DNA of 64,000 bases, from contig OZ252032.1 in the NCBI GenBank assembly GCA_965247655.1, positions 5,339,843 through 5,403,842 of the forward strand, written 5' to 3'. Made by a program: the position numbers and the translations under genes. The notes under the pieces were generated by a model that was not told the DNA's origin, searched no databases, and saw only the letters and a program-made list of their open reading frames with translations. Positions 17,535-34,385 of the stretch are shown piece by piece. This DNA is from Candidatus Poribacteria bacterium. Its GTDB lineage: Bacteria > Poribacteria > WGA-4E > PCPOR2b. Each line of letters begins with the position of its first letter. The first letter of the stretch is position 1.

Positions 17535-17648
17535 ACAGTCAGAGTAGAAACGCTAGTTGTAACAGGGATGTCCTCGCAAAGCCTGAAGTAATGTTCTTGA
17601 ACAAACTACTATAAGCAAGGCGGAATCCTAAAGGTGAAAGGTATTACC

Positions 17649-18533
17649 ATGGATGAAACAACTGAGATTGGAGCAGAGAACGTATACGATTTTCTTAAAC
17701 AGTTCGCTACAGATATCTCCCTAGCAGATCTGAAACCTGTATCCCATCGTCACCGGGGCGGTGATAGCCTGACCTTCTACTACCGTGACGACAGTATCCT
17801 CAAGGTTCCCCGCCTTAATGATTACCGCCCAGGACTCCTCAAAGAAATTAAACTCACAGAATACCTGCACACACAGTCACTACCCTTCGTTGTGGCAAAA
17901 CCGATCCTAGCGCATGAAGAGGGATTCTATGCGATGTTTTCAAGGATTGATGGTGCTTCGCTTCCGATAGAAGCACTTGAAGAACTTACCCCCGAAGAGT
18001 TGGAATCCTTTGGCAGATCTATCGGCACTTCCCTCTCTTTCTTGCACAATCACAAATTTCCGATCGAGGTCTTGGACTACATCCCACGCGCGGATGATCC
18101 CTTTGAAGTGGCACTTCGTGAGGCAAGGGGGCAGCTCGCTTTTATTGAGAAACACACTGTAGAAGTAGATACAACTCAATGGACTGAAAAGCTAGAAAGC
18201 CTGCGGGAATCCTTAAATCAGCGGTGGGCTGTGGTTCACTGCGATCTCCAAATAAACCACCTACTTTTTGTCCAAGGAAATCTGGAACAACTCGCCGTTA
18301 TCGATTTCGCGGATACGCTGATGCACGATCCCGCCGTAGATCTATCCGAGTTTGCCATAGAAATGTATTCAGATTTATCCCCTGACGGTATTGCAGCCAA
18401 AAAGATTATCAATGCGGTTCTAAAGCATTATCAAACAGACGATTCTGAGATTGAAGCGAAAATCGAGTTTGGACTTCTCCTTTTTGCAATTAGGTGCGCC
18501 TACCAAGAGGCAGTGAAACTTATCCGCTCATGA
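17649..18533 (+). CDS. Aminoglycoside/choline-kinase-type phosphotransferase (APH family)
   Basis: Catalytic loop VVHCDLQINHLLF and IDFADT motif; start at ATG 17649 behind AAAGGTGAAAGG (track start 17634 is GTG). Confidence 0.75.
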   Translation: MDETTEIGAENVYDFLKQFATDISLADLKPVSHRHRGGDSLTFYYRDDSILKVPRLNDYRPGLLKEIKLTEYLHTQSLPFVVAKPILAHEEGFYAMFSRIDGASLPIEALEELTPEELESFGRSIGTSLSFLHNHKFPIEVLDYIPRADDPFEVALREARGQLAFIEKHTVEVDTTQWTEKLESLRESLNQRWAVVHCDLQINHLLFVQGNLEQLAVIDFADTLMHDPAVDLSEFAIEMYSDLSPDGIAAKKIINAVLKHYQTDDSEIEAKIEFGLLLFAIRCAYQEAVKLIRS

Positions 18534-18675
18534 ACTTTCCCGTTGCCATTTCTCCGAAGATGGTATAATTAGACTTGGATGTTTTCAGGGTTATGGTCCT
18601 TTTGAGGTTGTCAAGTCACCATAGTCAATGAAGCTGCTATATTTATACTTTTCTCTGATACAGAAAGGAAATTCT

Positions 18676-19839
18676 ATGAAGATTAAAGAAATTCGCGTTG
18701 TAGAAATTGAGTTAAATCCGAAACCGACAACACCCCCACGGACACCGAGTCGGTCCGGAACGTATCAAATGAATCGACCCATTTCCCGTTACCCAACGTT
18801 CGACAAAAAAGAGGGAGATGTCTCCTTAGAATGGAAAAGGCCCGCATGTATTGTGACAGCGGAAGATGGCACTTGGGGATTTGGTATATCGCTTCATGGC
18901 GGTCCTGTGACCCGAATCATCACAGATTACTTTGCCCCGCGTCTCGTTGGCGAAAATTGCATGGCGACTGAGAAATTGTGGGACATGATGGTACGGTCAT
19001 CAGCCGCCTTTGGTACGACAGGTTTGACCAGTTACGCGATCAGCGCGATCGACTGTGCCCTGTGGGATCTCAAAGGCAAAATTCTGAAGAGACCTGTTTA
19101 TGAATTGCTGGGTGGACCACAGAAGGAGAAAATCTTCTGCTACGCTTCTGGCTTTGATCAGGAATGGTATATGGAGCTTGGATTCAAAGCGACAAAATTA
19201 TTCACACCTTACGGTCCGGAGCAGGGGAAAGAGGGCTTAATCAAGCTCGAAGAATTGGTGGCGAGCACGCGAGAAGTGATCGGCGATAAAGTTGAATTGA
19301 TGTTGGATGCTTGGACCGGTTTTGACGTTGAACATACCGTGCGCGTCTGCGAGATCATGAAACCTTACGGCTTGAAGTGGATGGAAGATTATATTCCCCC
19401 TGATGATTTTGTGGGGTACGAAACAGTCCGTCAACGCATTCCTTGGCAAACGCTCGCTACGGGAGAACACTGGTATCTACCAACTGTCTTTGCTGCTGCC
19501 GCGGGTCGGCGGTTAGTCGACATCTTCCAGCCAGACGTTTTGTGGTGTGGCGGTATCACTGCCGCAGCCAAAATCTGTCACATTGCTGAAGCGAACGGTA
19601 TCTCTGTGATTACGCACGGCGGAATGAATTATCCCTACGGTCAACATCTGTCATTTGCCATGCCTGCCATCACGTGGGGCGAGCGGTCCGAAGGTATTTC
19701 TCCTCCCGGTGTGCCGCTTGAAGAGATGGCCAAGTTGCCCGGTACTTCAGTCATCAAAGATGGTTACCTCGTACCATCGGAGGCCCCCGGTTTCGGTCTT
19801 GAAATTGATGAAGCTTGGATAGAGAGTGTCAGTAAATAG
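18676..19839 (+). CDS. Enolase-superfamily enzyme (mandelate racemase / sugar-acid dehydratase-like)
   Basis: AISAIDCALWDLKGK, LMLDAWTGFD, ATGEH motifs; start at ATG 18676 behind AAAGGAA. Confidence 0.8.
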   Translation: MKIKEIRVVEIELNPKPTTPPRTPSRSGTYQMNRPISRYPTFDKKEGDVSLEWKRPACIVTAEDGTWGFGISLHGGPVTRIITDYFAPRLVGENCMATEKLWDMMVRSSAAFGTTGLTSYAISAIDCALWDLKGKILKRPVYELLGGPQKEKIFCYASGFDQEWYMELGFKATKLFTPYGPEQGKEGLIKLEELVASTREVIGDKVELMLDAWTGFDVEHTVRVCEIMKPYGLKWMEDYIPPDDFVGYETVRQRIPWQTLATGEHWYLPTVFAAAAGRRLVDIFQPDVLWCGGITAAAKICHIAEANGISVITHGGMNYPYGQHLSFAMPAITWGERSEGISPPGVPLEEMAKLPGTSVIKDGYLVPSEAPGFGLEIDEAWIESVSK

Positions 19840-20080
19840 AATAACGCAAATTGCTAGGTATTCTAGTTGGTCAAGTTTCTTATTTCGCCCCGATACTTGG
19901 CAGGGCGGGTCTTCTAGACCGCTCTAACCTTTTCCATAATTTGTAGGTTGGGCTTCCTAGCCCAACCCTCAAAGTCTCAGCGGAGCGACAGGTAGCAACT
20001 TGCGTTAGAATATACAAAGAGGGGAAACATCCTCGGCTATGAATTAGAACAGGTAGATTCATAGAGGAGTATAATTTGAC

Positions 20081-21031
20081 ATGATGTATATTGATTTTGT
20101 CGAAGCCCTATCCGCGGACGATCTGGCGGCTATAAGGAAAGCCGCCAAAACTGACGTTCACTGTCATGCGTACTTTGGCACACGATTAGAGAATGTGGAA
20201 CACTGGTTGGGGCACTCACTGATGAAGGCACCTTCCAAAATGAGTGGACTCGATGCGATGATGGAGTACGCAGATGCGGTCCTAACCCCTCACATAAAAC
20301 ATCGCGAAGGTTTTGAGTTCGTCGCAGCGTCAGCGGTAAGCGATGCAATACAGGATGGCGTGGTTGTGTTTGAGATGAGCTTTGACATTCGGATGGCTGC
20401 CTACTATCCAGATGGCTTAGCTGGGGTTCGGACGTTTATTGAGGCGTTAGTTGACCGGTATCGGACGCAGATTAATCTACGGCCAGAACTTGGCTTTCCC
20501 CGGACGAGTGCCGACAATCCAAGCCTGATGAAGTTAGTGCACCAAGCGATAGAATTCGGTCTGTTTCAGTCAATTGATCTGTATGACCGTCAAGAGGCGT
20601 GCGCTCCTGAGGCTGTGAAGCCCTTGTATGCAAAGGCACAAGCTGCGGGAATGAAACTGAAAGCACATGTTGGAGAGTTTAGGGGTGCGGCGGAGATAAA
20701 GCGGACTGTCGAAGTCCTCGAATTGGACGAAGTCCAACACGGCATTGGCGCATCGGAATCGATTGAAGCCATGCGCTGGCTCTCCGAGAATCAGATTCAG
20801 TTGAATGTGTGCCCAACGAGCAACGTGATGTTGGATGCCGTGTCGGATCTCGCGTCTCATCCCATCCGCGTTTTGTTTGACAACGGTGTGCCGGTGACTA
20901 TTAATACAGATGATCCGATGATATTCGGTCAAAGCGTCTCAGACGAGTATCGAAATCTCTACCAAGCGGGTATCTTCACCGCTCAAGAGTTGGACGATAT
21001 TCGGTGTGCGTCACTTGAAGTGCTTGTTTGA
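20081..21031 (+). CDS. Adenosine/AMP deaminase-family metal-dependent hydrolase
   Basis: TDVHCHAY metal-binding start, HVGEF, and ADA signature-like TINTDDPMIFG. Confidence 0.7.
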   Translation: MMYIDFVEALSADDLAAIRKAAKTDVHCHAYFGTRLENVEHWLGHSLMKAPSKMSGLDAMMEYADAVLTPHIKHREGFEFVAASAVSDAIQDGVVVFEMSFDIRMAAYYPDGLAGVRTFIEALVDRYRTQINLRPELGFPRTSADNPSLMKLVHQAIEFGLFQSIDLYDRQEACAPEAVKPLYAKAQAAGMKLKAHVGEFRGAAEIKRTVEVLELDEVQHGIGASESIEAMRWLSENQIQLNVCPTSNVMLDAVSDLASHPIRVLFDNGVPVTINTDDPMIFGQSVSDEYRNLYQAGIFTAQELDDIRCASLEVLV

Positions 21032-21227
21032 TTTACTGTGACTTTTGATAGAAACCGAGACAACGTGTTTACGTTGTGGGCGACGAGGCACTTGGCTCCT
21101 TGGGCAACTTGAACTGGAATCTATATGGCGTTTTGTCCTGCTTGAAGAACAGGCAAAATTAGGATCACGGCAGTTGACACATAGTTGTCGCTGCGGCAGC
21201 TCTATTCTCATGACGTGGAGGAACACG

Positions 21228-22097
21228 GTGATTAATACCAAGTTAAAAGGCAAAGTCGCCCTGATCACAGGCACCAATCATGGCATTGGTGCTGCAACTG
21301 CTCTGGCTCTGGGCACCCAAGGCGTAAAGGTGTTTGCATCATTCTTTCGCCCACCGTGTCAATACAGCGAAACAGAATTGAAGAAAGCCGAGAAGACCGG
21401 ATTAGGTGGTGATGTTTTCTACCGAGCAATGCAACAAAAGTCTATTGAGCACCTCGTAAATCAGTTTGAAGAAAGGGGCATGAAGATATCTGTCTTAGAA
21501 GCCGACCTTGCTGATGCAACAAACATCTCGAAACTTTTCGATGCTTGTGAGAAGGAGCTAGGACCCGTTGATATCTTGATTAACAATCACACCTATTGCG
21601 TTCTGGAAACATTTGATCCTGAGCAAAGTTCAAAAGACGGGAGAGGCATTTTTCTACCCACCGCTTCAAGCATCGACGCACACTTTGTTATTAATTCCCG
21701 ATCGTATATATTGATGATGCAAGCGTATTTGAAGCGATACCTTAAAAACGGACTGAACTGGGGACGCATTGTAAACACCAGTACAGATGCCGCACATTGC
21801 CACCCGCTGAACATCAGCTATGCCGCAAGCAAACACGCAATCGAATCTTATAGCCGCTCTGCTGCATGTGAGATGGGAAAATACGGGATAACTGTCAACG
21901 TAATCGCTCCCGGACCGATTCAGACGGGCTACATCACACCTGAAGCTGAAAAAGGAATTGCAGAATCTACACCGTTAGGTAGGATTGGCAAACCTGAAGA
22001 TGTGGCGGAGGTTACTGTTTTCCTCTGTTCTGAGCAAGCCCGTTGGCTCACAGGGCAACTACTCTATGTTGGAGGCGGCTATCGAATGCCTCAATAG
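21228..22097 (+). CDS. SDR-family short-chain dehydrogenase/reductase
   Basis: TGTNHGIG cofactor motif, YAASK catalytic YxxxK; GTG start 6 nt after GGAGG (ATG 21210 is an alternative). Confidence 0.8.
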   Translation: MINTKLKGKVALITGTNHGIGAATALALGTQGVKVFASFFRPPCQYSETELKKAEKTGLGGDVFYRAMQQKSIEHLVNQFEERGMKISVLEADLADATNISKLFDACEKELGPVDILINNHTYCVLETFDPEQSSKDGRGIFLPTASSIDAHFVINSRSYILMMQAYLKRYLKNGLNWGRIVNTSTDAAHCHPLNISYAASKHAIESYSRSAACEMGKYGITVNVIAPGPIQTGYITPEAEKGIAESTPLGRIGKPEDVAEVTVFLCSEQARWLTGQLLYVGGGYRMPQ

Positions 22098-22160
22098 GTA
22101 GGCGTTCAGCGACTTGAAAATCTTAAGCGATATTTTGACACTTGAGAGGTTGAATCATCT

Positions 22161-22955
22161 ATGATTAAAATTCATGAAGCCAATCGTCGGCACTGGAATA
22201 ATCAGGCGGCAAGATGGGAGGAACGCTTGAATCGTGATGGACGTTGGCGCAAGTGCCATAAAGAGCCTGAATTGGCATTTGAGGGTGAGACACTTGCCAC
22301 AATCCGAGAGATGGTGGGTGATCTTCACAACAAGCAAGTGTGCGTAATTGGTAGCGGGGATAACATGGCAGCCTATGCACTTTCAGGATTAGGGGCAGCC
22401 GTGACTTCCACAGATATTTCGGAGGAACGATTGAAATTGGCAGCCGATCGTGCAAAAACCCTCGGCGTGTCAATTGATTTTGTTCATTCCGATGCCGCTG
22501 CTCTCGGATTTGCAGACGATTCGACCTTTGATCTTGTCTGCTCCACAAATGGCTTTTTCGTGTGGATTGCCGATCTTGGTGCGGTATTTCGTGAGGTTTC
22601 GAGAGTCCTGAAGCCAGGAGGCGCATACATTTTCTACGACATTCATCCATTCATGCGTCCATGGAAAGAGCAGGTAACGCCTATTGAAATGGCAAAGCCT
22701 TATTGGGACACCGGACCATTTCAAGAGTCCGCGGACGAATCGTACGAGTTTAACTGGACCTTAGCGGATTTGCTTAATCCACTAGTACAAGCAGGGTTGA
22801 CATTGAAAAAAGTTGTCGAAAGCTCAACACAAGATCCCGGATTTTGGCAGGGAAGCAGTGATGCGTCTGACATCGATGAATCATTACTTGATTGGAAAAG
22901 GAATCCCCGTGCTGGATTGCCGGTCTGGCTAACAGTCGCCTGCATCCAAAATTGA
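22161..22955 (+). CDS. Class I SAM-dependent methyltransferase (paralog of 27127..27923)
   Basis: Motif I VCVIGSGDNMAAYALSGLG and motif post-I TSTDISE. Confidence 0.8.
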   Translation: MIKIHEANRRHWNNQAARWEERLNRDGRWRKCHKEPELAFEGETLATIREMVGDLHNKQVCVIGSGDNMAAYALSGLGAAVTSTDISEERLKLAADRAKTLGVSIDFVHSDAAALGFADDSTFDLVCSTNGFFVWIADLGAVFREVSRVLKPGGAYIFYDIHPFMRPWKEQVTPIEMAKPYWDTGPFQESADESYEFNWTLADLLNPLVQAGLTLKKVVESSTQDPGFWQGSSDASDIDESLLDWKRNPRAGLPVWLTVACIQN

Positions 22956-23018
22956 TTAAGGTACGGTTAGCACACAATAGCAAATTACCCGGGTTACTTT
23001 GCGCAAGGAATCCACACA

Positions 23019-23540
23019 ATGATAGAAATACGGGAAGAGCAGCGAGGGGAGTATCAGGAAATCCGTCAGGTTATCGTCGCTGCATTCGGTGGTGACTCCG
23101 AAGAACCCGCAGCCAATGTCGTTGAATTGCTTAGAGACAGAAATAAGGCACCGGTTGCGCTCGTGGCAGTCAGTGACAATAAGATTGTTGGCCATATCAT
23201 GTTTTCGCCGGTTACGATAACACTCGCGCCCAAAGCGTTCTGTGCTGTTGGACTGGCACCCCTATCCGTCCTGCCAGAGTTTCAACGGCAGGGTATTGGC
23301 TCTATGTTGGCACGTGAAGGGTTAAAAAAATGTGCGGCGGCCGGATTTGAGGTCGTAGTCGTGTTGGGAAGTCGCTATTACTACCCACGATTCGGTTTCT
23401 CCCGTGCTAGCCTTTACGGCTTGGGCAATGAATATGACACTGACGAGCATTTCATGGCAATAGAACTGAAGAATGGCGTTCTTGATAAAGTCGGCGGCAC
23501 TGTGCAGTATTCACCAGAATTCAAAGAGTGTGGTTGCTGA
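23019..23540 (+). CDS. GNAT-family acetyltransferase (paralog of 27983..28504)
   Basis: QRQGIGSMLAREGLKKCAAAGFEVVVVLG acetyl-CoA binding core. Confidence 0.8.
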   Translation: MIEIREEQRGEYQEIRQVIVAAFGGDSEEPAANVVELLRDRNKAPVALVAVSDNKIVGHIMFSPVTITLAPKAFCAVGLAPLSVLPEFQRQGIGSMLAREGLKKCAAAGFEVVVVLGSRYYYPRFGFSRASLYGLGNEYDTDEHFMAIELKNGVLDKVGGTVQYSPEFKECGC

Positions 23541-23607
23541 GAAATCCATCTACAGGATAATCGGTCAATAAAACTGACAAACCAATCTGATGATTTCACA
23601 AACAAAG

Positions 23608-23636
23608 TTGACTTGCTCACCTAAATACAGTATATT
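23608..23636 (+). promoter_or_regulatory. Near-consensus sigma70-type promoter TTGACT-N17-TATATT
   Basis: Hexamers and 17-nt spacer read directly; about 210 nt upstream of the 23845 start. Confidence 0.45.
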
Positions 23637-23844
23637 GCCTCTGAAAACGACCCAAACAACTCAAGCGGTCGGGCTGGCGTTATCTCGTAGAGACTACATT
23701 GGTGCAGGTCTCAGCCGTTACTGATAATTGTTGTATCAGAACCCAGACCAGCAGTTGTCCTTAATAGCACTGAACAGTAGTAAACACTAAATGGTTCTCT
23801 CGCTCAGTTCGTATCGAGTAGCGTCGTTGTAAGTTTACCACATC

Positions 23845-24432
23845 GTGAGAATGAACAAGCCGTTTGTTATATCAGTCAATTCAGTATCGGGCGGTGGAAA
23901 GACGGCACTGTCAGCTCTGCTCCACAAGTCATTGCCGGATTCGTCTCTTTTCTGCTTCGACGATTTCGATGATTCAAATATTTATCCTGTTGATTTCTAC
24001 GATTGGAGCCAACGTGGCGGTGACATCGAAGAATTCGACTGTCCTGGAATGCAAGCGGCGGTCGCAGCTGAAGTTCACCGGGGAACAGCAAAGCAGATTA
24101 TTTTGGATTTCCCATTCGGTCGTCGCCACTCGCGCTTTTGTGATACCATTGATTTTGCTATTTTTGTTGACACTCCGCTTGATGTCGCCATGGCGCGACG
24201 AATTTTGAGAGACTATACAATCAACCACGATGAATCCCCAGAAGGAACTCTGAATCGCCTCCATAACGATATGTCGAACTATTTGGTAAGGGCACGCTAT
24301 CCATATTTGGATACTTACAAGGACAGGGACCATAGTGATCTCGTTTTGGATGGGTGGCGCAGTCTGGATGATTTGAAGAACGACGTGATAGCGGTGCTAA
24401 AATCGAGGAATCTGGTAACCCACGTCACTTAA
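23845..24432 (+). CDS. P-loop NTPase / small-molecule kinase-like protein
   Basis: Walker A SVSGGGKTAL at the N-terminus; uridine-kinase/chloramphenicol-phosphotransferase-like architecture. Confidence 0.5.
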   Translation: MRMNKPFVISVNSVSGGGKTALSALLHKSLPDSSLFCFDDFDDSNIYPVDFYDWSQRGGDIEEFDCPGMQAAVAAEVHRGTAKQIILDFPFGRRHSRFCDTIDFAIFVDTPLDVAMARRILRDYTINHDESPEGTLNRLHNDMSNYLVRARYPYLDTYKDRDHSDLVLDGWRSLDDLKNDVIAVLKSRNLVTHVT

Positions 24433-24546
24433 AAACACAGTTTGCGCTGCGCCCCTTGGCCTTCGGCAACTCCTCGACAAGCCTGGGGCTCACAAACCGG
24501 CAAAGCGTTTCCGGAAATGGGGATTAAATCTGTGAAAAACCTAGAG

Positions 24547-25338
24547 ATGAACTCTGAGAGCAGAAGCACTGCACTCTACGACTATCCAGATTACTACGAG
24601 CTGGCATTCTCATTTCGTGACATCTCTCACGAAGTAACGTGTTTCGAGCAGTTGTTCGAGAGGTTCGCTAAGGTGCCGGTGAGGCGAGTGCTGGAGTTAG
24701 CCTGTGGTCCGAGTCCGCACATTCGGGAATTGTGCCGACGGGGTTACGAGTATCACGGGCTAGATACGAATGAAAATATGCTCGCCGCCGGCCAAAGGAA
24801 GGTTACTGAAAGTACATGGACAGCAGAATTTCACAAAGCCTCTATGATAGATTTCAACGTGGACACAACATACCAGTTTGCTTTCGTCGCGCTCGGCTCG
24901 CTGTATGCACGGAACACAGAGGAACTGTCTATCCACTTCAGGTCGGTGGCAAGCGTCCTTGAACCTGGTGGGCTTTACATGCTGGACTGGTGCGTACAAT
25001 TCGGTCAATCCCTCACTTTTTCAGAGACAGGTCAGTCCTGGACAGTGGAGGAGGAAGGGATCGCAGTCGAAGTGAACGTCACATTGAGGGACGTTGATCC
25101 CATCGAGCAGATTGTCCAAGAAGTGGCCACTCTAAATGTGACAGACTACGGCCGATCCCTGACGATATCTAGTTCAGACCTACGAAGGGTGATGTATCCA
25201 CAGGAGTTTCTCTTGCTAACCGACGCTATGGAGGAGTTCAAGTTTCTGGGTTGGTGGAACGATTGGGACTTGAACCAGCCATTATCACAGGTAACAGGTG
25301 AGATTAATCGGCCAATCGTACTGCTTCGTCGGGTCTGA
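24547..25338 (+). CDS. Class I SAM-dependent methyltransferase
   Basis: Motif I VLELACGPSPH; start uncertain (24517 or 24547) because a repeat element overlaps the upstream region. Confidence 0.65.
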   Translation: MNSESRSTALYDYPDYYELAFSFRDISHEVTCFEQLFERFAKVPVRRVLELACGPSPHIRELCRRGYEYHGLDTNENMLAAGQRKVTESTWTAEFHKASMIDFNVDTTYQFAFVALGSLYARNTEELSIHFRSVASVLEPGGLYMLDWCVQFGQSLTFSETGQSWTVEEEGIAVEVNVTLRDVDPIEQIVQEVATLNVTDYGRSLTISSSDLRRVMYPQEFLLLTDAMEEFKFLGWWNDWDLNQPLSQVTGEINRPIVLLRRV

Positions 25339-25532
25339 GAGGTCTGAACTACTCAGTAGCTAGGAAACCGAACGTCCACATCCGGTAACACCCGGCTGCC
25401 ACTGCACCGTCCTGCAGCAGCTTGATCTTCGGCAACCCCTACACAAACCGCCTTTTCATAGGCACTGTTGTAGGGCCCAATGTCGAGTATAATAATGCTA
25501 GATAATCATTTGTAACATCTTGGGGTGGTATA

Positions 25533-26339
25533 TTGACTGATCACGACAATCTTGAGGAGTTTTCTGATCCAGCCAACTATGATTTGGAGGATGCTAGCGA
25601 TACAGGTATCGCTTTTTACACTGCCTTAGCACAGGAAACTGGCGATCCTGTACTCGAAATCGCCTGTGGTACGGGTCGTGTCAGCATCCCGATTGCACGA
25701 TTGGGTTTTTCTGTAACTGGTTTAGATATCGTACCGGGAATGATAGAGCGGGCGCGTAGCAAATCTGTTGGCTTACCTACACGCTGGATCGTGGGCGACG
25801 CCCGTACATTTGACCTCGGCGAACAATTTCGACTCATCTTCTTGACTGGCAATGCTTTTCAGGCTTTTTTAACAAACGCCGATCAAGAAGCACTGTTGCA
25901 ACGTGTGTATGCACATTTACACGACGAGGGATTGTTTGCCTTTGAAACGCGCAACCCGATTTTCCCCCACTCCCAGACTCCAGAGGGGCTATTTGTGCCC
26001 CTTGAAACGAATGTGGAAGAACAAGATTGGTCATCCTTTATTGATACAAGTGGGCACGAAGTGCGTGTGTCGAGAACTTACGTATATGACCATGTGGCTC
26101 AGATCCATCACTGGACGACCTACAAACGCTGGCACGAAGGTGGGGAGGAACACACCAAGATCACGCGTACTGCGTTGCGCTACATCTTCCCGCAGGAACT
26201 TGCAGCACTACTATACTACAATGGCTTCAGCATCGCACAGCAGTATGGTGATTGGAGTCTAGCACCGCTGACCGCTGATAACCCTAGCATCATCTCAGTC
26301 TGCCGCAAGCGCGGAGGATTTCAATCGCTTAATCAATGA
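25533..26339 (+). CDS. Class I SAM-dependent methyltransferase
   Basis: Motif I VLEIACGTGRVS, motif II GLDIVPGM; TTG start behind GGGGTGG. Confidence 0.7.
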   Translation: MTDHDNLEEFSDPANYDLEDASDTGIAFYTALAQETGDPVLEIACGTGRVSIPIARLGFSVTGLDIVPGMIERARSKSVGLPTRWIVGDARTFDLGEQFRLIFLTGNAFQAFLTNADQEALLQRVYAHLHDEGLFAFETRNPIFPHSQTPEGLFVPLETNVEEQDWSSFIDTSGHEVRVSRTYVYDHVAQIHHWTTYKRWHEGGEEHTKITRTALRYIFPQELAALLYYNGFSIAQQYGDWSLAPLTADNPSIISVCRKRGGFQSLNQ

Positions 26340-26408
26340 AACTGACAAATCCAAACGCACCAATCATAAACGGAACTGGTGCCTATACCAACGGATTGGA
26401 GGATCGAC

Positions 26409-26992
26409 ATGGATAAATACTTGCGTCCCACGGACGTGATGGATTATAACCACCCTGAAGTTCAAGATCTAGCGCGTACTTTAGGAAACGGGATCTCAGA
26501 GCAAACGATAATCTCAAAACGCTGCTTTGAGTGGGTACGAGATGAAATCAAGCATAGTGGGGACTTCAAGATGAATCCGACGACCTGCGCTGCGTCCGAG
26601 GTATTGCGTTATAAGACAGGATGGTTTTTGCCAAGAGTCATCTGCTGGCTGCGCTCTTAAGGGCAAACCATATACCCGCTGGATTGTGCTACCAACGGCT
26701 CACACGAAACGAGAAGACGGCCCCCCTCACACTACACGGTTTGAATGCAGTTCTGCTGCCTGAATTTGGGTGGTACAGAATTGATCCAAGAGGCAACAGA
26801 AACGGGGTAAACGCTCAATTCGATCCGCCCAACGAGAAATTAGCCTGGCCGATAGCCGTTGAGGGAGAAAGGAATCTCCGAGACGTGTGGGCAGATCCTC
26901 TGCCGACGGTGGTTGCTGTCTTGAGGAGCTACGACACTTGGGAAGGGATTCGTAATCACCTTCCAGACCTGCCCTTCCAGCAAGGAGACTGA
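26409..26992 (+). pseudogene. Transglutaminase-like cysteine protease superfamily gene, frameshifted at the catalytic Cys codon
   Basis: N-part ends ...SEVLRYKTGWF and continues in another frame as (V)FAKSHLLAALLRANHIPAG...H...D; two overlapping ORFs 26379..26660 and 26621..26992; break lies in a T5 run. Confidence 0.55.
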
Positions 26993-27126
26993 ACTTTCGT
27001 CTCTATATAACACCCAATCGCTGCTGCCGCGCTCACACACCTTTGGCTTTGGGCAAACCGCTTTGCGGGTTCAGCCACTTGAAAACCTTAAGCGATATTT
27101 TGATACTTGCGAGGTCGAATCGTCTA

Positions 27127-27923
27127 TGATTAAAATTCATGAAGCCAATCGTCGGCATTGGAATAGTCAAGCACCAACATGGGAGGAACGCTTGAACCGT
27201 GATGGTCGTTGGCGCAGATGTCATAAAGAGCCTGAATTGGCATTTGAGGGCGAAACACTTGCCACAATCCGAGAGATGGTAGGCGATCTTCGCAACAAAC
27301 AGGTGTGTGTAATTGGTAGTGGAGATAACATGGCAGCCTATGCACTTTCAGGATTAGGGGCAGTCGTGACTTCCACAGATATTTCGGAGGAACGATTGAA
27401 ATTGGCAGCAGATCGTGCAGAAATCCTCGGTGTGTCAATCGATTTTGTTCGTTCCGATGCCGCAGATCTCGGATTCGCAGACGATTCGACCTTTGATCTT
27501 GTCTGCTCCACAAATGGCTTTTTCGTGTGGATTGCCGATCCCGGTGCGGTATTTCGTGAGGTTTCAAGAATCCTGAAACCAGGAGGCGCATACGTTTTCT
27601 ACGACATCCATCCATTCATGCGCCCATGGAAAGAGCAGGTGACGCCCATTGAAATGGCGAAGCCTTATTGGGACACTGGACCGTTTCGAGAGTCAGCGGA
27701 CGGATCGTACGAGTTTAACTGGACCTTGGCCGATTTGCTTAATCCGCTGGCACAAACTGGATTGACATTGAAAAAAGTTGTCGAAAGTCCAGCGCAAGAT
27801 CCCGGATTTTGGCAGGGAAGCAGTGATATGTCTAGCACCGATGAATCTTTACTTGATTGGAAAAGGAATCCCCGCGCTGGATTGCCTGTTTGGCTAACAG
27901 TCGCTGCCTCCAGAATTGATTGA
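27127..27923 (+). CDS. Class I SAM-dependent methyltransferase (second copy, about 93 percent identical to 22161..22955)
   Basis: Same motifs as 22161; conserved 50-nt upstream leader. Confidence 0.8.
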
Positions 27924-27982
27924 GGTACGGTCAGAACACAGTGGCAAGTTACCCGGGTTACTTTGCGAAAGGAATCCACACA

Positions 27983-28504
27983 ATGATAGAGATACGGGAA
28001 GAACAGCAAGAGGAGTGTCAGGAAATCCATCAGGTTATCGTCGCTGCATTCGGTGGTGACCCCGAAGAACCCGTAGCCGACGTCGTTGAATTGCTTCGAG
28101 ATAGAAACAAGGCACCGGTTGCGCTTGTGGCAGTCAGGGACAACAAGATTGTCGGTCATATCATGTTTTCACCGGTTACGATAACACTCGCGCCCAAAGC
28201 GTTCCGTGCTGTTGGACTGGCACCCCTATCCGTCCTGCCAGAGTTCCAAAGGCAGGGCATTGGCTCTATGTTGGCACGCGAAGGGTTAAAAAAATGTGCG
28301 GCGGCAGGATTTGAGATAGCAGTCGTGTTGGGAAGTCGCTACTACTACCCACGATTCGGTTTCTCTCGTGCCAGTTTTTACGGCTTGGGCAATGAATATG
28401 ACACTGACGAGCATTTCATGGCAATAGAACTGAAGAATGGCGTTCTTGATAAAGTCAGCGGCACCGTGCAGTATTCGCCAGAATTCAAGGAGTGTGGTTG
28501 CTGA
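27983..28504 (+). CDS. GNAT-family acetyltransferase (second copy, about 93 percent identical to 23019..23540)
   Basis: Near-identical protein sequence to 23019 copy. Confidence 0.8.
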   Translation: MIEIREEQQEECQEIHQVIVAAFGGDPEEPVADVVELLRDRNKAPVALVAVRDNKIVGHIMFSPVTITLAPKAFRAVGLAPLSVLPEFQRQGIGSMLAREGLKKCAAAGFEIAVVLGSRYYYPRFGFSRASFYGLGNEYDTDEHFMAIELKNGVLDKVSGTVQYSPEFKECGC

Positions 28505-28559
28505 GAAATCCAGCCACAGGATAATCCGTGAAAACTTATACAAAACGGTAAGATTAGAA

Positions 28560-29627
28560 ATGACCTCGAGCACTAAAACCAACAATACACCCAACGATGG
28601 AACCGATTTCGTAAGTGGCATTGATTTAGCCCGGATGTTCTATGTTGAAATCGTTCGCCCACTCATAGAAGGGCGAGCCCACAGTGCAGCGAGGCTAGGG
28701 TCAGGGTCGGATGTTCTCGGTTTCGATACCCCTCGATCAACAGACCACGGCTGGGGACCACAATTACACCTTTTTGTGGCAGCCTCTGAGGTAGATGCCA
28801 TCCGCACGATTATCGATTCAAACCTACCGGAGGAGTTTCACGGGTGGCCCGTGCGCTTCGGCTGGGATGAGGTCGCCATTCAGCACCATGTGAGCGTTGT
28901 ATCTCTTGGGGAGTGGCTTGAATTGCATCTGGGATTCGATCCGCAAGTGGATATTACCGTCCAAAACTGGCTTACGACGCCACAACAACTACTGCTAGAA
29001 GTAACAGCAGGTGCGGTCTTTCATGATCCGGATGGAGATTTGAAACGGGTTCGCAGTAAACTGGAGTGGTTTCCAAACGATATTTGGCTATGGCTCTTGG
29101 CTTGTCAGTGGCGTCGAATTGCTCAAGAAGAGGCGTTCGTTGGTCGCACGGCTGAAATCGGCGATGAACTCGGTTCACGAATCCTGACAGCCCGAATTGT
29201 ACGCGATCTCATGAGGCTTTGCTTCCTTATAGAGCGGCAATATGCTCCATATAGCAAGTGGCTGGGCAGCGCATTCCGAAATCTCCGCATTGCCTTCAAA
29301 CTCACCCCGTATCTGGATGCAGCACTCAAGGCTACGGACTACCTTGCTAGAGAAACGGGGCTCTGTTCTGCCTACGAATATGTCGCACGTTGCTACAATC
29401 AACTGAACCTCACCCCTCCCGTTGATCCTGAAACCCGCTTGTTTTATAAACGTCCTTTTCGGGTGCTTGGAGGAGATCGATTTGCAGAGGCGTGCTTGGC
29501 AGCCATTCAAGATGAGTGGCTGAAAGGACAACCGCTTGTAGGGAGTGTCGATCAGTTTGTGGACAGTACGGATGTCTTGAGCAGCGCACACCGATCTCGG
29601 TGTCTTACCAATATCTATGACGACTGA
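28560..29627 (+). CDS. Nucleotidyltransferase-like / DUF4037-like protein (paralog 1 of 3)
   Basis: Degenerate pol-beta NTase motif LGSGSDVLGFDTPRSTDHGWGP; shared C-terminal region with 29727 and 32047 proteins (W..L..W... APY.KWL). Confidence 0.5.
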   Translation: MTSSTKTNNTPNDGTDFVSGIDLARMFYVEIVRPLIEGRAHSAARLGSGSDVLGFDTPRSTDHGWGPQLHLFVAASEVDAIRTIIDSNLPEEFHGWPVRFGWDEVAIQHHVSVVSLGEWLELHLGFDPQVDITVQNWLTTPQQLLLEVTAGAVFHDPDGDLKRVRSKLEWFPNDIWLWLLACQWRRIAQEEAFVGRTAEIGDELGSRILTARIVRDLMRLCFLIERQYAPYSKWLGSAFRNLRIAFKLTPYLDAALKATDYLARETGLCSAYEYVARCYNQLNLTPPVDPETRLFYKRPFRVLGGDRFAEACLAAIQDEWLKGQPLVGSVDQFVDSTDVLSSAHRSRCLTNIYDD

Positions 29628-29726
29628 ATTCTATTTGTCTAACAAGCTCGTCGCCCAATCGCTTCGTGGTTCGGGTACATTGGAAGTGTGGATTCAGGGT
29701 GTACAAACGGGCAAGCTAAGGAGACC

Positions 29727-30710
29727 GTGAAATTGACAACACCTATTAAGGCCCTTGAACTTTCACGCCGGTTGTTTGAGCAACGCGGACACCCCTTACT
29801 CCAGCAACTTGATCTGCTCGATGTATGTGCGGTGGGTTGTTTTGGAGGCACTTCACAGAACGCCAATCTTGATGACGATTGGTCTCGCGATCACATGTGG
29901 GGTCCGTACCTCACCTTCGTCTTGAAGGGCGAAGCCTACAATGAACATGAGTCCGCACTAGAAAAAGCTATCGCAAAGATGCCTGATGAAATTGATGGTG
30001 TGCACTGGATTGGCTACGATGGGCCCGAGCCACGCAGAACCGGTGTCCAAGAAGCGCATTCACTTCTGCGTTTGATAACAGGTCTTGAGGGTCCCGTAGA
30101 TAGCGAAGAGGATTGGATTTCGCTCATCGAGCGTAACGGTTTTCTGGGGTGTCGCTGGACCGAACAGCTTTTTGACGCAGGTCAAGGAGCAGTTTTTCAT
30201 GGGGCATGGTTTGAGGGGATGTGGCGGGACTGGACAAAATTCGTTCCGATAAACGTCAAGTTGGCGTTAATCAGTCGCTCCGTATTTCGAATCTGGAATG
30301 CGGGTCCGACCTATAATCTCAAGCGATTAATCGCTCGCAAGGATGCGATAGGAACGCTCCTCTGTACGAGTCGGTTCGTCGATGAGGTAATGGAGTTGGG
30401 GTTCACTCTGAGTGACCAGTTCACACCTTCCTTCAAGTGGCGATCTGCCCATTTCCAACGCCTCTCGGTCTTCTCAAAAGAAACCCAGACTGCGATTGCG
30501 AGATTAGTTGAAGTAAAAGACGTGGAAGAGATTCTATCCATTGCAAAATCTATCGAGTCTGAAATTAAAAGTGTATTGCGGTCTATGTTCTCTGTCAGAT
30601 GCGGACAGAGAACCGACTTGTCCATGTATGCACACGCAATCAAAAGAAAGATACGTCACAAGCGAGTGAAAGATATGACGAATCTAGATTGGTGGGTTCA
30701 TCTCGGATGA
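29727..30710 (+). CDS. Nucleotidyltransferase-like / DUF4037-like protein (paralog 2 of 3)
   Basis: GCFGGTSQNANLDDDWSRDHMWGP motif; start uncertain (GTG 29688, GTG 29727 or TTG 29733). Confidence 0.5.
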   Translation: MKLTTPIKALELSRRLFEQRGHPLLQQLDLLDVCAVGCFGGTSQNANLDDDWSRDHMWGPYLTFVLKGEAYNEHESALEKAIAKMPDEIDGVHWIGYDGPEPRRTGVQEAHSLLRLITGLEGPVDSEEDWISLIERNGFLGCRWTEQLFDAGQGAVFHGAWFEGMWRDWTKFVPINVKLALISRSVFRIWNAGPTYNLKRLIARKDAIGTLLCTSRFVDEVMELGFTLSDQFTPSFKWRSAHFQRLSVFSKETQTAIARLVEVKDVEEILSIAKSIESEIKSVLRSMFSVRCGQRTDLSMYAHAIKRKIRHKRVKDMTNLDWWVHLG

Positions 30711-30919
30711 ACAATAGGAGAATCTGAGAGGGTATAGGAGCAAGATAGAAGAAATAACCCGCGTCACTTAACAACACGGTTTGCGCTGCGGTGCTTAGCA
30801 CCTTGGCCTTCGGCAACCTAGTTGCACAGGTTTGCAAACCGGCAAACGTTAGCGGCCATGCATCCACACTTGAGCAATAGCCTTTGTTCAACAACCATTA
30901 CCAACATGAGATTCCCGCC

Positions 30920-31918
30920 ATGATGAATGTTGAAAACATGCGACTAGTAGTCGACGTTCTGGAGTCAACGAAAGCGTGTCCGGCTTTGACGGAGATCGCT
31001 GCTCGAAGGTGGTCTCCTGAACCTCATCTCTTTTCCTATGTGAGGAGCAGTGCCACTTTCATCTTCACGTTCTATCAGGGCGAGCAAAAGAGGATTCTCA
31101 GACTTCAACACTCGGCGGACACCACTCTCGAACGAATCACCTCTGAACTTGAATTTATCCATCACGTTTTCGAGACTGGAGTCCAAGCTGCCAAAGCGAT
31201 CCCGTCACGAAATGACCAAATCGTGGAGGTGGTGGACTGGGAGGGGCACACCTTCTACGCAACCGCGTTTGAGTACATGGTCGGGAGACACTGCGAGACT
31301 CAAGATCTCACATCTGAAATGTTGTTTCAGTGGGGCAAGACACTTGCGCTCATTCATCTGGCCTCACGCAGTTTTGTGGAACCGGAGGGTTTTGCCATCC
31401 CATCTTGGGAAAACGAACTGAATCAATTGGTTAAATACATTCCAGAAGATGAAAGCCGGACGCAAGACGAGCTAAAATGCGTTCGGGAGTGGCTCGGACA
31501 GCGGGAGAAGACCTCAAAAAATTATGGCTTGATCCATCGTGACTTGGAATTGGACAACATGAAATGGGATGGTGAGCACTTCCTGGTGTTTGATTTCAAC
31601 GACCTGATGTACCATTACTTCGCAGCAGATGTCGCATCCTCTCTTGAGGAAATTCTTGGGACCGAAGATGCTGAGAAGAACTCGACGCGGTTCCTTGAGG
31701 GATATGAGCGGTCCCTAGACGACCTCGAAATCAACGTAGACGAATTCCCAATGTTCTCCCGAGCCGCCAGACTTCGCAAGTACCTCAAGCTCCTTGCATC
31801 GTACTCGGGAACGCGTCCGGAATCTGATTCGGAATGGCTGTCGGGGATGCGCAAGCGACACGAAAGCGTAATGGATTATCTCCGTGAGTCGGTCGCGACT
31901 CCATTTAGCTGGCAATGA
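30920..31918 (+). CDS. APH-family phosphotransferase (aminoglycoside/choline kinase-like)
   Basis: Catalytic loop LIHRDLELDNMKW and FDFNDL motif; ATG 30920 preferred over TTG 30884. Confidence 0.7.
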   Translation: MMNVENMRLVVDVLESTKACPALTEIAARRWSPEPHLFSYVRSSATFIFTFYQGEQKRILRLQHSADTTLERITSELEFIHHVFETGVQAAKAIPSRNDQIVEVVDWEGHTFYATAFEYMVGRHCETQDLTSEMLFQWGKTLALIHLASRSFVEPEGFAIPSWENELNQLVKYIPEDESRTQDELKCVREWLGQREKTSKNYGLIHRDLELDNMKWDGEHFLVFDFNDLMYHYFAADVASSLEEILGTEDAEKNSTRFLEGYERSLDDLEINVDEFPMFSRAARLRKYLKLLASYSGTRPESDSEWLSGMRKRHESVMDYLRESVATPFSWQ

Positions 31919-32046
31919 GCCGCTGTGCACACCTGCTAATCTGTGCATCCACGGCTTCGCCAAGTTAGTTTTCAAAAAGGTTAGTCGTCTTTAGATCTGG
32001 AACTGGTATTAGGTGCCATCTAAGAAATGTCATCGTGGAGGACTCT

Positions 32047-33030
32047 ATGAAAGGATTTGAACTATCAGAGCGATTCTTCCGAGAGATTGGGCTTCCTACC
32101 ATTGAGCAGCAATTGCCTAGGTGTATCCCGAGACTGGCAGTAGGAGTTAGTGAAGGCTCGCAAGCGCACAAGAACGACGACGAGGTGTCTCGTGATCATG
32201 GTTGGGGACCGGGATTCACGGTGTGGTTTGCCAAAAACGATTTCGATGATTACGGCGAGCATCTACGGGAAGTACTCGATACGCTGCCCAATGCGTATAA
32301 CGGATTTCGATGGAAGAATCCACCGGCTAGGACCTGTGGTGTAATCGAAATCGGTAGCTATATAGAATCTGTAGTCGGATTTCCAGAGCCCCCCGAGTCA
32401 TCTATGGACTGGTTGCGAATACCAGAGTCGTATCTGTTTGAACTAACCCCGAGCAGGCTTTATCACGATGGGCCTGGCATTGTCAGTGCGCACTTCAGAG
32501 CGTTCTCCAAATACCCCGATGATGTATGGAAGCAGCGAATGGGGGCTTGTCTTTCCTGGCTCTGGGAGTGGGGACGAAAGCATCTCTTCAGGGCAGAAAC
32601 TCGAGAAGACTACGTGAGTGCGTCTTGCTATTGGGCGCGATTCGCTGAATACGCAATGAAGGTTGGTTTTCTGATGAGTCAGCGTCATGCACCCTACCAC
32701 AAATGGTTGTGGACAGAATTTAGAAAGTTGGGTGCTATTGCCGACGAAGTTTCTCCTTTGCTCGAGGAGGGGTTCGAGAAGGTAAATAGTAGACGAGAAC
32801 TGGTTGACCGCATAGAGATGCTCTATATGGAGAGGCTTCAGAAGTTGGGCTTTTCATTAGAACTCACGGTCCAAGTAGCCGCTAGAAGATTGGCCTATCC
32901 GGACAACGAACTACTTCAATATGCTCAGGGTATTCGGGGCACAATTGAAGATCCAGAAATCAAGAAACTACACTTGAGAGAAGAACTTGTCTATCCAGCA
33001 ACTAAGGCCGCGTGGACGTGGCTACGATAG
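32047..33030 (+). CDS. Nucleotidyltransferase-like / DUF4037-like protein (paralog 3 of 3)
   Basis: GVSEGSQAHKNDDEVSRDHGWGP motif; ATG 32047 behind GGAGG. Confidence 0.5.
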   Translation: MKGFELSERFFREIGLPTIEQQLPRCIPRLAVGVSEGSQAHKNDDEVSRDHGWGPGFTVWFAKNDFDDYGEHLREVLDTLPNAYNGFRWKNPPARTCGVIEIGSYIESVVGFPEPPESSMDWLRIPESYLFELTPSRLYHDGPGIVSAHFRAFSKYPDDVWKQRMGACLSWLWEWGRKHLFRAETREDYVSASCYWARFAEYAMKVGFLMSQRHAPYHKWLWTEFRKLGAIADEVSPLLEEGFEKVNSRRELVDRIEMLYMERLQKLGFSLELTVQVAARRLAYPDNELLQYAQGIRGTIEDPEIKKLHLREELVYPATKAAWTWLR

Positions 33031-34366: not shown

Positions 34367-34385
34367 GTAGGGCCTTATGCTAGTT

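What the first reader, a model, noticed from the sequence alone, without database searches (positions are those of the whole stretch)
22100..28510. 1.45-kb direct segmental duplication of a methyltransferase-GNAT module about 5 kb apart
The region 22110-23545 (methyltransferase 22161..22955 plus GNAT 23019..23540, with about 50 nt of leader) is repeated at 27075-28510 (27127..27923 plus 27983..28504). Proteins are about 93 percent identical and the nucleotide level is about 90 percent. The repeats are direct. Recombination between them would therefore delete or amplify the intervening 5 kb (P-loop kinase, two methyltransferases, transglutaminase pseudogene). The divergence suggests the duplication is not an assembly artefact.
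Basis: seen in the sequence. Interest (0 to 1): 0.55.

Follow-up and report, generated by a model that had tools for sequence, protein, structure and literature searches.

The report
Duplicated methyltransferase-acetyltransferase cassette in Poribacteria island
A two-gene unit (a methyltransferase plus an acetyltransferase) really is present twice, 5 kb apart, but the copies are old, diverged versions sitting in two alternative slots of a reshuffled gene island of a sponge symbiont, so this is an ordinary product of island recombination, not a fresh duplication.

Summary
Window 22104-23562 and 27069-28526 are direct repeats, 91.6% identical over 1459 nt with one 1-nt indel. Both gene pairs are intact, with dN/dS about 0.13-0.14.

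The copies are not recent. Their dS (0.23-0.31) equals the divergence between related Candidatus Poribacteria species.

The repeats lie in a roughly 21-kb same-strand island. It sits between an ABC-2 transporter operon and an acyl-CoA synthetase gene, a site conserved in at least 14 Poribacteria genomes.

In those genomes the module occurs once. It sits either after the SDR gene (copy-1 slot) or after the transglutaminase gene (copy-2 slot), with the same junction sequences as here. The window fills both slots.

A 3.9-kb tract containing copy 1 is identical, bar one base, to another assembly (L001). That identity ends inside methyltransferase gene MT-C at about 26033.

My best reading is that homologous recombination between islands with different gene order joined the two slots. 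A strain-chimeric assembly cannot be excluded.

Island genes are separated by about 90-nt imperfect palindromes that resemble integron attC sites. No integrase is nearby, and the window's elements fold weakly. Interest is modest.

The parts
22104..23562 (+). Repeat copy 1: a 57-nt leader, methyltransferase MT-A1, a 63-nt spacer, GNAT-A1 and a 22-nt tail.
   Evidence: It is identical to L001 9944-11402 apart from one base.
22104..22135 (+). The 3' half of an attC-like element (GTTCAGCGACTTGAAAATCTTAAGC), joined 6 nt after the SDR stop codon.
   Evidence: The same junction (TAG-GTAGGC|GTTCAGC) is present in L004, L009, L002 and L007.
22161..22955 (+). MT-A1, a class-I SAM-dependent methyltransferase of 264 aa. 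A 1-nt insertion at 22939 rewrites its last 5 residues.
   Evidence: Pfam hits. One search shows 13 private amino-acid changes against 3 in copy 2. All close homologues are 265 aa.
23019..23540 (+). GNAT-A1, a YhbS-like N-acetyltransferase of 173 aa.
   Evidence: Pfam hits. PDB matches 4zbg and 4rs2.
23563..23651 (+). The ancestral 3' flank of the module, carrying a conserved promoter-like site (TTGACT-17-TATATT, 23608-23636). Copy 2 lacks this flank.
   Evidence: One search shows it conserved in L001, L010, L009, L008, L012 and the L001 A0 copy.
23845..24432 (+). P-loop protein with a weak match to the PRK/uridine-kinase family.
24428..24513 (+). attC-like intergenic element. It contains the 45-nt repeat D3, also found at 30755-30799.
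   Evidence: (E = 0.2).
24517..25338 (+). MT-B, a class-I methyltransferase. Its start codon is uncertain, because the listed ORF start at 24442 lies inside the element.
25533..26339 (+). MT-C, a class-I methyltransferase. Its cassette begins at GTTGTAG (25467). The tract identical to L001 ends at about 26033 inside this gene.
26379..26992 (+). Transglutaminase-like gene, frameshifted by a 1-nt deletion at 26625.
27002..27100 (+). A complete attC-like element that overlaps the first 32 nt of repeat copy 2. Layout: TATAAC ... CAATCGCTG ... central hairpin CAAACCGC-TTT-GCGGGTT ... CAGCCACTTG-AAAAC-CTTAAGC.
   Evidence: (E = 5.9e-13).
27069..28526 (+). Repeat copy 2: leader, MT-A2 (27126-27923, 265 aa), spacer, GNAT-A2 (27983-28504) and tail.
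   Evidence: The block is colinear with L013 8370-12500.
28527..28545 (+). Remnant of the 3' end of the element that precedes DUF4037a (CGTGAAAACTTATAC). It is fused to the tail of copy 2, and L013 has the same junction.
   Evidence: The full element is present in L001 14761-14850 and L010 14164-14254.
28560..29627 (+). DUF4037a gene. Its likely start lies downstream of the listed ATG at 28437, which falls inside the repeat.
14527..35564 (+). The variable island. All genes are on the + strand. It lies between the ABC-2 transporter operon (10595-13274, - strand) and an AMP-binding gene (35736-37619, - strand). Transposase genes sit at 13735-14526 and 34453-35400, and a terminal element at 35474-35564.

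Best explanation
The two repeats are diverged alleles of one two-gene unit, a methyltransferase plus a GNAT acetyltransferase. This unit can occupy either of two slots in a hypervariable, cassette-structured island of Candidatus Poribacteria.

Most genomes fill only one slot: after the SDR gene, or after the transglutaminase gene. The window fills both.

The most likely cause is homologous recombination between islands with different gene order. A crossover inside the shared gene MT-C (about 26033) would join a left block (SDR, MT-A1, GNAT-A1, P-loop gene, MT-B, 5' part of MT-C; L001-like from 22104 rightwards, since L001 has no SDR gene upstream) to an L013-like right block (3' part of MT-C, transglutaminase, MT-A2, GNAT-A2, DUF4037a).

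Shown: the repeat, its age, purifying selection on both copies, the two conserved slots, and the identical tract with its end in MT-C. Inferred: that this crossover created the two-copy state, and that both enzyme pairs are expressed and useful.
For: - **Slots.** Copy 1's left junction is shared with L004, L009, L002 and L007, and its 3' flank with most species. Copy 2's left junction is shared with L010 and L013, and its right junction with L013.
- **Copy number.** None of 14 species-level island loci has two copies within 10 kb on either side.
- **Age.** dS between the copies is 0.31 (methyltransferase) and 0.23 (GNAT). Window-versus-L013/L010 orthologues give 0.11-0.43.
- **No strong sister signal.** There are 7 shared derived sites against 22 and 26 private ones, and quartet counts are star-like.
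- **Recombination tract.** The window and L001 differ at 1 of 3929 positions over 22104-26032. They then differ at 22 of 293 up to 26325, and are 93-94% identical in other shared blocks.
- **Independent precedent.** L001 carries a second, 91%-identical copy about 10 kb upstream in a different arrangement, so multi-copy states recur in this clade.
- **Selection.** dN/dS is 0.13 and 0.14. The SAM-binding motif and the acetyl-CoA (Q/RxxGxG) motif are identical in both copies.
Against: - No independent assembly shows the two-copy arrangement.
- Identity of the window to L013 and L010 does not change at 26033, so the native versus imported origin of the two halves is not shown directly.
- The window's left flank (the SDR gene) is neither L001-like nor L013-like, so at least one more event is needed.
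- By raw identity the two window copies are each other's nearest relatives: 92% against at most 90% for any other genome. That also fits a duplication within this lineage.
Confidence: 0.5

Rival explanations
1. An old duplication within this lineage, for example a tandem duplication of a multi-gene segment followed by partial loss. Both copies would have been kept by selection. The window would then be an intermediate between the two single-copy gene orders.
For: - The window's order equals the order after the SDR gene plus the order after the transglutaminase gene.
- Both copies are under purifying selection.
- The copies are nominally each other's closest relatives, 92% against at most 90%.
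Against: - It needs repeated precise losses in L013, L010 and all genomes that use only the SDR slot.
- The signal for the two copies being sisters is weak: 7 shared derived sites, and star-like quartets.
- It does not explain the tract identical to L001 that ends inside MT-C.
- Genomes using the SDR slot carry a transglutaminase-NUDIX fusion, which the window lacks.
Confidence: 0.2
2. A metagenome assembly chimera. Two co-existing strains, one with each gene order, would have been joined by the assembler inside the shared MT-C gene, producing an apparent duplication.
For: - The switch from 99.97% to 92.5% identity with L001 lies inside a gene that both architectures share.
- The window's MT-A2, GNAT-A2 and MT-C proteins are not on record in any other assembly.
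- No single-copy relative has both slots filled.
Against: - L001, an independent 2.7-Mb contig, also has two diverged copies in direct orientation.
- Mosaic identity (89-95% to L013 along the island) shows real recombination is frequent here.
- The related assemblies are 5-7 Mb single contigs or chromosomes. I infer these are long-read assemblies, whose reads would span 5 kb, but the window's own sequencing technology is unknown.
Confidence: 0.15
3. Site-specific cassette duplication. An integron-type recombinase encoded elsewhere would have excised the methyltransferase-GNAT cassette at its attC-like sites and re-inserted a copy at a second attC-like site.
For: - attC-like elements flank cassettes in the island, and one abuts copy 2.
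- The module and the MT-C cassette both begin with GTT. In L010 the SDR stop codon is joined directly to GTTGCAG.
Against: - No integrase is present in the 64-kb window or in any of 26 related loci.
- The repeat's left edge lies in the central hairpin, about 25 nt upstream of the putative R' box. Its right edge lies in an L' box. Neither is at a G|TT crossover point.
- The window's elements fold no better than shuffled sequence.
- An 8% divergence means any such event was ancient.
Confidence: 0.1

Closest known systems
Flexible (hypervariable) genomic islands at conserved chromosomal sites, reshaped by homologous recombination between strains. This comparison rests on my own knowledge of the concept as described for marine bacteria.
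   Same: - The site is fixed between conserved flanking genes in at least 14 genomes.
- Gene content and order differ between species and between near-identical strains.
- Identity is mosaic, including a tract that is essentially identical between lineages.
   Different: - All genes are on one strand.
- Many genes are separated by a shared family of structured elements about 90 nt long.
- The content is almost entirely small group-transfer enzymes: methyltransferases, GNATs, APH kinases, DUF4037 proteins and a sulfotransferase.
[quoted passage not shown] 2016, PMC4889954)
   Same: - ORFs are co-oriented, and an imperfect palindrome starts 0-90 nt after the stop codon.
- The element ends carry conserved AAC ... 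GTT triplets (TAAC / GTTA).
- Inner arms differ in sequence between instances but stay complementary.
- The central region varies in length.
- No integrase is nearby, and the elements are degenerate.
- Duplicated cassettes occur in such arrays.
   Different: - The R' consensus is only partly GTTRRRY.
- The unpaired spacer is longer on the 3' arm, whereas as I recall it the canonical attC site carries its extra bases on the 5' (R''-L'') arm.
- A conserved central hairpin (CAACCGC-TTC-GCGGTTCGG) is shared across elements.
- The window's elements are not thermodynamically better than shuffles.
- The repeat's edges are not at the expected crossover point.
- IntegronFinder's attC model could not be run.
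Ordinary segmental duplication (paralogous gene pair) with later divergence
   Same: Two direct copies about 5 kb apart, both intact and under purifying selection.
   Different: Each copy has its own conserved orthologous context in other species. Their divergence matches inter-species divergence. One copy lies in a recently exchanged tract.

Membership tests
Direct segmental duplication | Two same-strand copies with significant nucleotide identity across genes and non-coding leader. | tested here: met
   91.6% identity over 1459 nt. The leader is 89.5% identical and the spacer 88.9%.
Direct segmental duplication | The copies arose from one another within this genome, so they should be supported sisters relative to orthologues. 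| tested here: inconclusive
   They are nearest by raw identity. Site patterns and quartets are star-like, and dS equals inter-species dS.
Integron cassette array / CALIN | At least two attC sites: an imperfect palindrome with conserved AAC/GTT triplets, R and L boxes, and a variable central part of 20-100 nt. | tested here: inconclusive
   - TAAC...GTTA ends, with inner arms that co-vary: cognate pairing -10.3 versus non-cognate -6.9 kcal/mol, 0 of 20000 permutations as good.
- Covariation in the central hairpin and terminal pairs: 82.6% of cells paired, 0 of 500 shuffles as high.
- The covariance model gives 5 hits in the window, all inside the island.
- Folding z-scores of the window's elements are -0.7 to +0.9.
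- The curated attC model was not available.
Integron cassette array / CALIN | Elements sit immediately 3' of co-oriented ORFs, one per cassette. | tested here: met
   In the window, elements start within about 75 nt of stop codons (24428, 27002, 30764, 33037, 35474). In L024 and L026 most elements (about 6 of 10) follow the stop of a same-strand ORF within about 90 nt, on either strand; three have no clear same-strand ORF. The left half of the island (14.7-22 kb) lacks clear elements.
Integron cassette array / CALIN | Cassette boundaries lie at the G|TT of the R' box. | tested here: not met
   This result is for the duplicated module. Its left edge is in the central hairpin and its right edge in an L' box. 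Some other boundaries do start with GTT: MT-C at 25467, and the L010 junction SDR-TAG|GTTGCAG.
Complete integron | An integron integrase (intI) adjacent to the array. | tested here: not met
   Pfam on all large ORFs that flank the island found none. ORFs in the gaps between transporter and first cassette in six loci were listed and read by eye, and none looked like an integrase.
REP/MITE-like dispersed repeats | Copies scattered genome-wide in either orientation, independent of gene strand. | tested here: not met
   No model hits fall in the 43 kb of the window outside the island, or in the conserved flanks of the loci. Most hits (about 6 of 10 in the two-strand loci L024 and L026) follow the strand of the preceding ORF. 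The sample is only about 0.6 Mb.

The most novel reading that the evidence does not exclude
The island could be a cassette array of an integron-like system not described so far in the sponge-symbiont phyla Poribacteria and Latescibacterota. Its genes would be bounded by a distinctive family of attC-like elements: TAAC ... co-varying inner arms ... a conserved CAACCGC-TTC-GCGGTTCGG hairpin ... GAAAAC-GTTA. These elements would be serviced by a recombinase encoded elsewhere, or now lost. The methyltransferase-GNAT module would be a fused double cassette that this system, together with homologous recombination, moves between slots and even between phyla. Methyltransferase homologues of 73-82% identity, with similar elements nearby, occur in Latescibacterota.
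Probability: 0.3. Interest if true: 0.6.

Novelty: new member of a known kind. Interest (0 to 1): 0.35.

Why it matters
The duplication itself is routine. It is one more paralogous pair of small-molecule-modifying enzymes, with no unusual mechanism required.

What could matter is the setting:
- The island sits at a fixed chromosomal site in an uncultivated sponge-symbiont phylum.
- It is rebuilt from gene-sized units in every species.
- It exchanges multi-kilobase tracts between lineages.
- It carries structured intergenic elements resembling integron recombination sites, with no integrase nearby.

If those elements are real recombination sites, Poribacteria and Latescibacterota would join the lineages that use cassette arrays to trade accessory enzymes. 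The island would then be a tractable place to study how cassettes become fixed.

Tried and rejected
- **Collapsed or duplicated-read artefact.** Rejected. The differences between copies follow codon structure: 67 of 105 coding differences are at third positions, and dN/dS is 0.13.
- **Recent gene conversion between the copies.** No signal. Mismatches are evenly spread (4-13 per 100 nt), and an 80-bp identical run is not unexpected at this divergence.
- **Consistent faster evolution of one copy.** Rejected. MT-A1 has more private amino-acid changes (13 versus 3, four of them from the terminal frameshift), but GNAT-A2 has more than GNAT-A1 (6 versus 2).
- **Integrase next to the array.** The candidate ORF 12291-13274 is an ABC ATPase. 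No tyrosine recombinase was found in the window or in any locus.
- **Rfam.** Only a tRNA passes the gathering score. Nothing credible appears in the island at E <= 5.
- **Metagenome scan with the 19-nt hairpin core.** Of 59 loci, most are chance matches. Only L030, L059 and L034 carry full elements, and none has an integrase.
- **A shift in identity to L013 or L010 at the proposed crossover.** None was seen.
- **Breakpoints in the closest genome pairs (L006/L008, L002/L009).** They are heterogeneous and not tied to one motif.
- **Other same-family genes in the island as recent duplicates.** They are not. The three DUF4037 genes are only 24-26% identical. The two APH genes and the pairs MT-B/MT-C and MT-A/MT-C give only short local matches of 23-34% identity.
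- **Promoter and terminator scan.** Counts do not exceed shuffles.
- **Bootstrap tree script.** It timed out and was replaced by site-pattern counts.


Full report
**1. The observation**

A self-comparison of the 64-kb window finds one long repeat, 22104-23562 versus 27069-28526. The copies are direct, 91.57% identical over 1459 nt, with 122 mismatches and a single 1-nt indel at 22939.

Each copy has the same layout:
- a 57-nt leader;
- a spacer of about 60 nt;
- a 173-aa GNAT acetyltransferase (23019-23540; 27983-28504);
- 22 nt of tail.

The genes in between are a weak PRK-family P-loop protein, two unrelated class-I methyltransferases (MT-B, MT-C) and a transglutaminase-core gene. The last is split by a 1-nt deletion at 26625 relative to L013 and L002.

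**2. State of the two copies**

Both gene pairs are intact. Nei-Gojobori estimates are as follows.

| Gene | dS | dN | dN/dS |
|---|---|---|---|
| Methyltransferase | 0.31 | 0.041 | 0.13 |
| GNAT | 0.23 | 0.033 | 0.14 |

Of the 105 coding differences, 67 are at third codon positions. The SAM-binding motif and the acetyl-CoA motif are unchanged. The differences are therefore real alleles under purifying selection, not sequencing noise.

Mismatches are spread evenly. The longest identical run is 80 bp and 14 runs reach 25 bp. Recombination between the copies is possible but has a poor substrate.

The indel gives MT-A1 a derived C-terminus. All close homologues are 265 aa, like MT-A2. The closest solved structures are generic small-molecule methyltransferases and YhbS-like acetyltransferases, so the substrates are unknown.

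**3. Where the window comes from and what surrounds the repeat**

The exact MT-A1 protein occurs on a 2.7-Mb ENA metagenome contig, fetched as L001. A scan of species-representative genomes finds relatives at 86-89% identity in Candidatus Poribacteria chromosomes of 5-7 Mb, and at 73-82% in Latescibacterota. I recall both as sponge-associated lineages.

In at least 14 Poribacteria genomes the module lies in the same chromosomal place. It is part of a run of + strand genes between an ABC-2 transporter operon (window 10595-13274, - strand) and an AMP-binding acyl-CoA synthetase gene (35736-37619, - strand).

In the window this island spans about 14.5-35.6 kb. It encodes a sulfotransferase, GNATs, two APH kinases, an enolase-superfamily protein, an adenosine deaminase, an SDR, four methyltransferases and three DUF4037 proteins. 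Two transposase genes sit at its edges.

The other same-family genes in the island are only distant relatives: 24-26% identity among the DUF4037 genes, and short local matches of 23-34% for the others. The methyltransferase-GNAT pair is the only young duplicate.

**4. Two slots**

Across the related islands the module occurs once per locus, in one of two main positions.

- **After the SDR gene.** L004, L009, L002 and L007 have it here, with the same junction as window copy 1 (SDR stop TAG, 6-9 nt, then GTTCAGC...). The same conserved 3' flank of about 90 nt, carrying a TTGACT-17-TATATT site, follows the module in L009 and in most other species, but not in L004, L002 or L007.
- **After the transglutaminase gene.** L010 and L013 have it here, with the same upstream element as window copy 2. 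L013 also shares copy 2's right junction, where the module tail is fused to the truncated leader of DUF4037a. Window 25489-29634 is colinear with L013 8370-12500.

None of these genomes has two copies within 10 kb on either side. The window has both slots filled.

L001 also has two copies, but the extra one (A0, 91% and 89% identical to the window copies) lies about 10 kb upstream in yet another context. In other species the module has still other left neighbours. In distant Poribacteria and in Latescibacterota the methyltransferase occurs without the GNAT. This suggests the pair is a fusion of two units.

**5. Age and origin**

By raw identity the window copies are each other's nearest relatives: 92% against at most 90%. 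The signal for them being sisters is weak, however.

- At sites where five outgroups agree, 7 changes are shared by both copies, against 22 and 26 private ones.
- Quartet counts with L013 or L010 plus L004 are essentially equal for the three topologies.
- dS between the copies (0.23-0.31) matches dS between window genes and their L013 or L010 orthologues (0.11-0.43).

The two alleles are therefore about as old as the species splits in this clade.

There is also direct evidence of recent exchange. The window and L001 differ at a single base from 22104 to 26032. They then differ at 22 of 293 positions up to 26325, after which homology stops. The other shared blocks are only 93-94% identical.

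That tract contains copy 1 and ends inside MT-C, the gene shared by both gene orders. From 22104 rightwards the window therefore reads as an L001-like left block joined, within MT-C, to an L013-like right block; the SDR gene to the left of 22104 has no counterpart in L001. This is what a homologous crossover between an island with the SDR-slot order and an island with the transglutaminase-slot order would produce, with the two-copy state as a by-product.

I rank this explanation first, at about 0.5. Its weak points are these:
- No identity shift relative to L013 or L010 is seen at 26033.
- The SDR flank is unlike both L001 and L013.
- No second assembly shows the arrangement.

**6. Rival explanations**

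- **An older duplication in place, with differential loss (about 0.2).** It fits the gene order. It requires repeated precise losses and does not explain the identical tract.
- **A strain-chimeric metagenome assembly switching inside MT-C (about 0.15).** It would look identical in sequence, and only reads can exclude it. L001's own two copies and the pervasive mosaicism (89-95% identity to L013 along the island) argue that real recombination suffices.
- **Integrase-mediated cassette duplication (about 0.1).** It is disfavoured because the repeat's edges are not at the expected crossover point and no integrase is present.

**7. The intergenic elements**

Many intergenic regions in the right half of the island, and in related loci, carry an element of about 70-95 nt with a recurring layout:
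- ..YTAAC-A.. at the 5' end;
- an inner arm;
- a conserved hairpin (CTTCGGC-AAC-CGC-TTC-GCG-GTT-CGG);
- the complementary inner arm;
- GAAAAC-GTTA.. at the 3' end.

*Evidence for a conserved structure.*
- The inner arms differ between instances but stay complementary. Examples are CACTTGCG/CGCAAGTG in L024 and CGGTTTGC/GCAAACCG at window 30777/30834.
- Cognate arm pairs bind better than non-cognate pairs: -10.3 versus -6.9 kcal/mol, with 0 of 20000 permutations as good.
- A covariance model built from nine instances outside the window finds 39 hits at E < 1 in 584 kb.
- The window hits (24428, 27002, 30764, 33037, 35474) all lie inside the island, on the gene strand, and start within about 75 nt of stop codons.
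- In the Latescibacterota loci, most hits on either strand follow the stop of a same-strand ORF.
- Pair counts show covariation in the hairpin and the terminal TAAC/GTTA pairs. 82.6% of cells are paired, no shuffle in 500 reaches this, and slid controls give at most 39%. The alignment used was fitted to the model.

This layout resembles integron attC sites and, with no integrase nearby, a CALIN as defined by Cury et al. (PMC4889954).

*Evidence against membership.*
- No intI is present in the window or in any locus.
- The R' consensus matches only partly.
- The spacer asymmetry appears opposite to what I recall of the canonical site.
- The window's elements fold no better than shuffled sequence (z from -0.7 to +0.9). 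Only the Latescibacterota example folds convincingly (z of -3.7 and -4.7).
- Rfam has nothing.

The repeat's left edge (GTTCAGC) falls in the 3' arm of the central hairpin of such an element. Copy 2 has the whole element (27002-27100). Copy 1 has only the 3' half, fused to the SDR stop codon. The repeat's right edge in copy 2 is fused to the 3' remnant of the next element. These look like old deletion joints, not integrase crossovers.

I treat the elements as probable degenerate relics of attC-type sites (about 0.5). I put the chance that an active cassette system explains the island at about 0.3.

**8. Verdict**

The finding is real but ordinary: a diverged, selectively maintained second copy of a two-gene unit. 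It was most likely assembled by recombination within a hypervariable island of a sponge symbiont. The island's cassette-like architecture is the more interesting lead and deserves a proper attC and intI analysis on the complete chromosomes.

Noticed in passing
window 22104-26032 versus L001 9944-13872: A 3.9-kb tract (MT-A1, GNAT-A1, the P-loop gene, MT-B and the 5' part of MT-C) differs at a single base between two assemblies. Elsewhere in the island those assemblies are 93-94% identical or non-homologous. This points to recent exchange between lineages, with one end inside MT-C.
   Followed up: yes
window 24428-24513, 27002-27100, 30764-30854, 33037-33126, 35474-35564; also L024 and L026: A family of structured intergenic elements about 90 nt long that resemble attC sites. 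They have TAAC...GTTA ends, co-varying inner arms and a conserved CAACCGC-TTC-GCGGTTCGG hairpin. Poribacteria and Latescibacterota loci share them, and no integrase is nearby.
   Followed up: partly
L016, L018, L020, L024, L026 (Latescibacterota chromosomes): Methyltransferase homologues of 73-82% amino-acid identity occur in a different phylum, without the GNAT partner. One genome (OZ252100.1) has two distant copies. This suggests transfer of the cassette between phyla.
   Followed up: partly
window 13735-14526 (-) and 14765-15040 (+): An IS4/IS5-family DDE transposase sits at the left edge of the island. Next to it is a 91-aa ORF that looks like the C-terminal fragment of an alpha/beta hydrolase. 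A full-length 299-aa gene occupies the equivalent place in L004.
   Followed up: no
window 34371-34434 and 34453-35400: A near-perfect AT-rich palindrome (TAGCTTCCCTTTTTTT...AAAAAAAAGGGAAGCTA) follows the last island gene. It gave spurious miRNA hits on both strands. An IS982-like DDE transposase gene follows it, lying between that gene and the terminal attC-like element.
   Followed up: no
window 54364-55734 (-), with repeats at 51548-51576 and 54359-54387: A TnpB protein (IS605 OrfB, Cas12f-like TNB domain). A 29-nt direct repeat (96% identical) has one copy abutting the gene's 3' end and the other 2.8 kb away.
   Followed up: no
window 26625: A single-base deletion relative to L013 and L002 splits the transglutaminase-like gene. 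It could be a true pseudogene or a homopolymer error in the assembly. In genomes that use the SDR slot, this gene is fused to a NUDIX domain (L002 12386-13408).
   Followed up: partly
window 6558-7748 and 18628-19839: Two enolase-superfamily (MR/MLE) genes, one outside the island and one inside it. The island copy is the most conserved island gene across species, at 93-96% amino-acid identity.
   Followed up: no
window 10452-10524 (-): A tRNA gene lies just beyond the far end of the ABC-2 transporter operon, about 4 kb from the left edge of the island.
   Followed up: no
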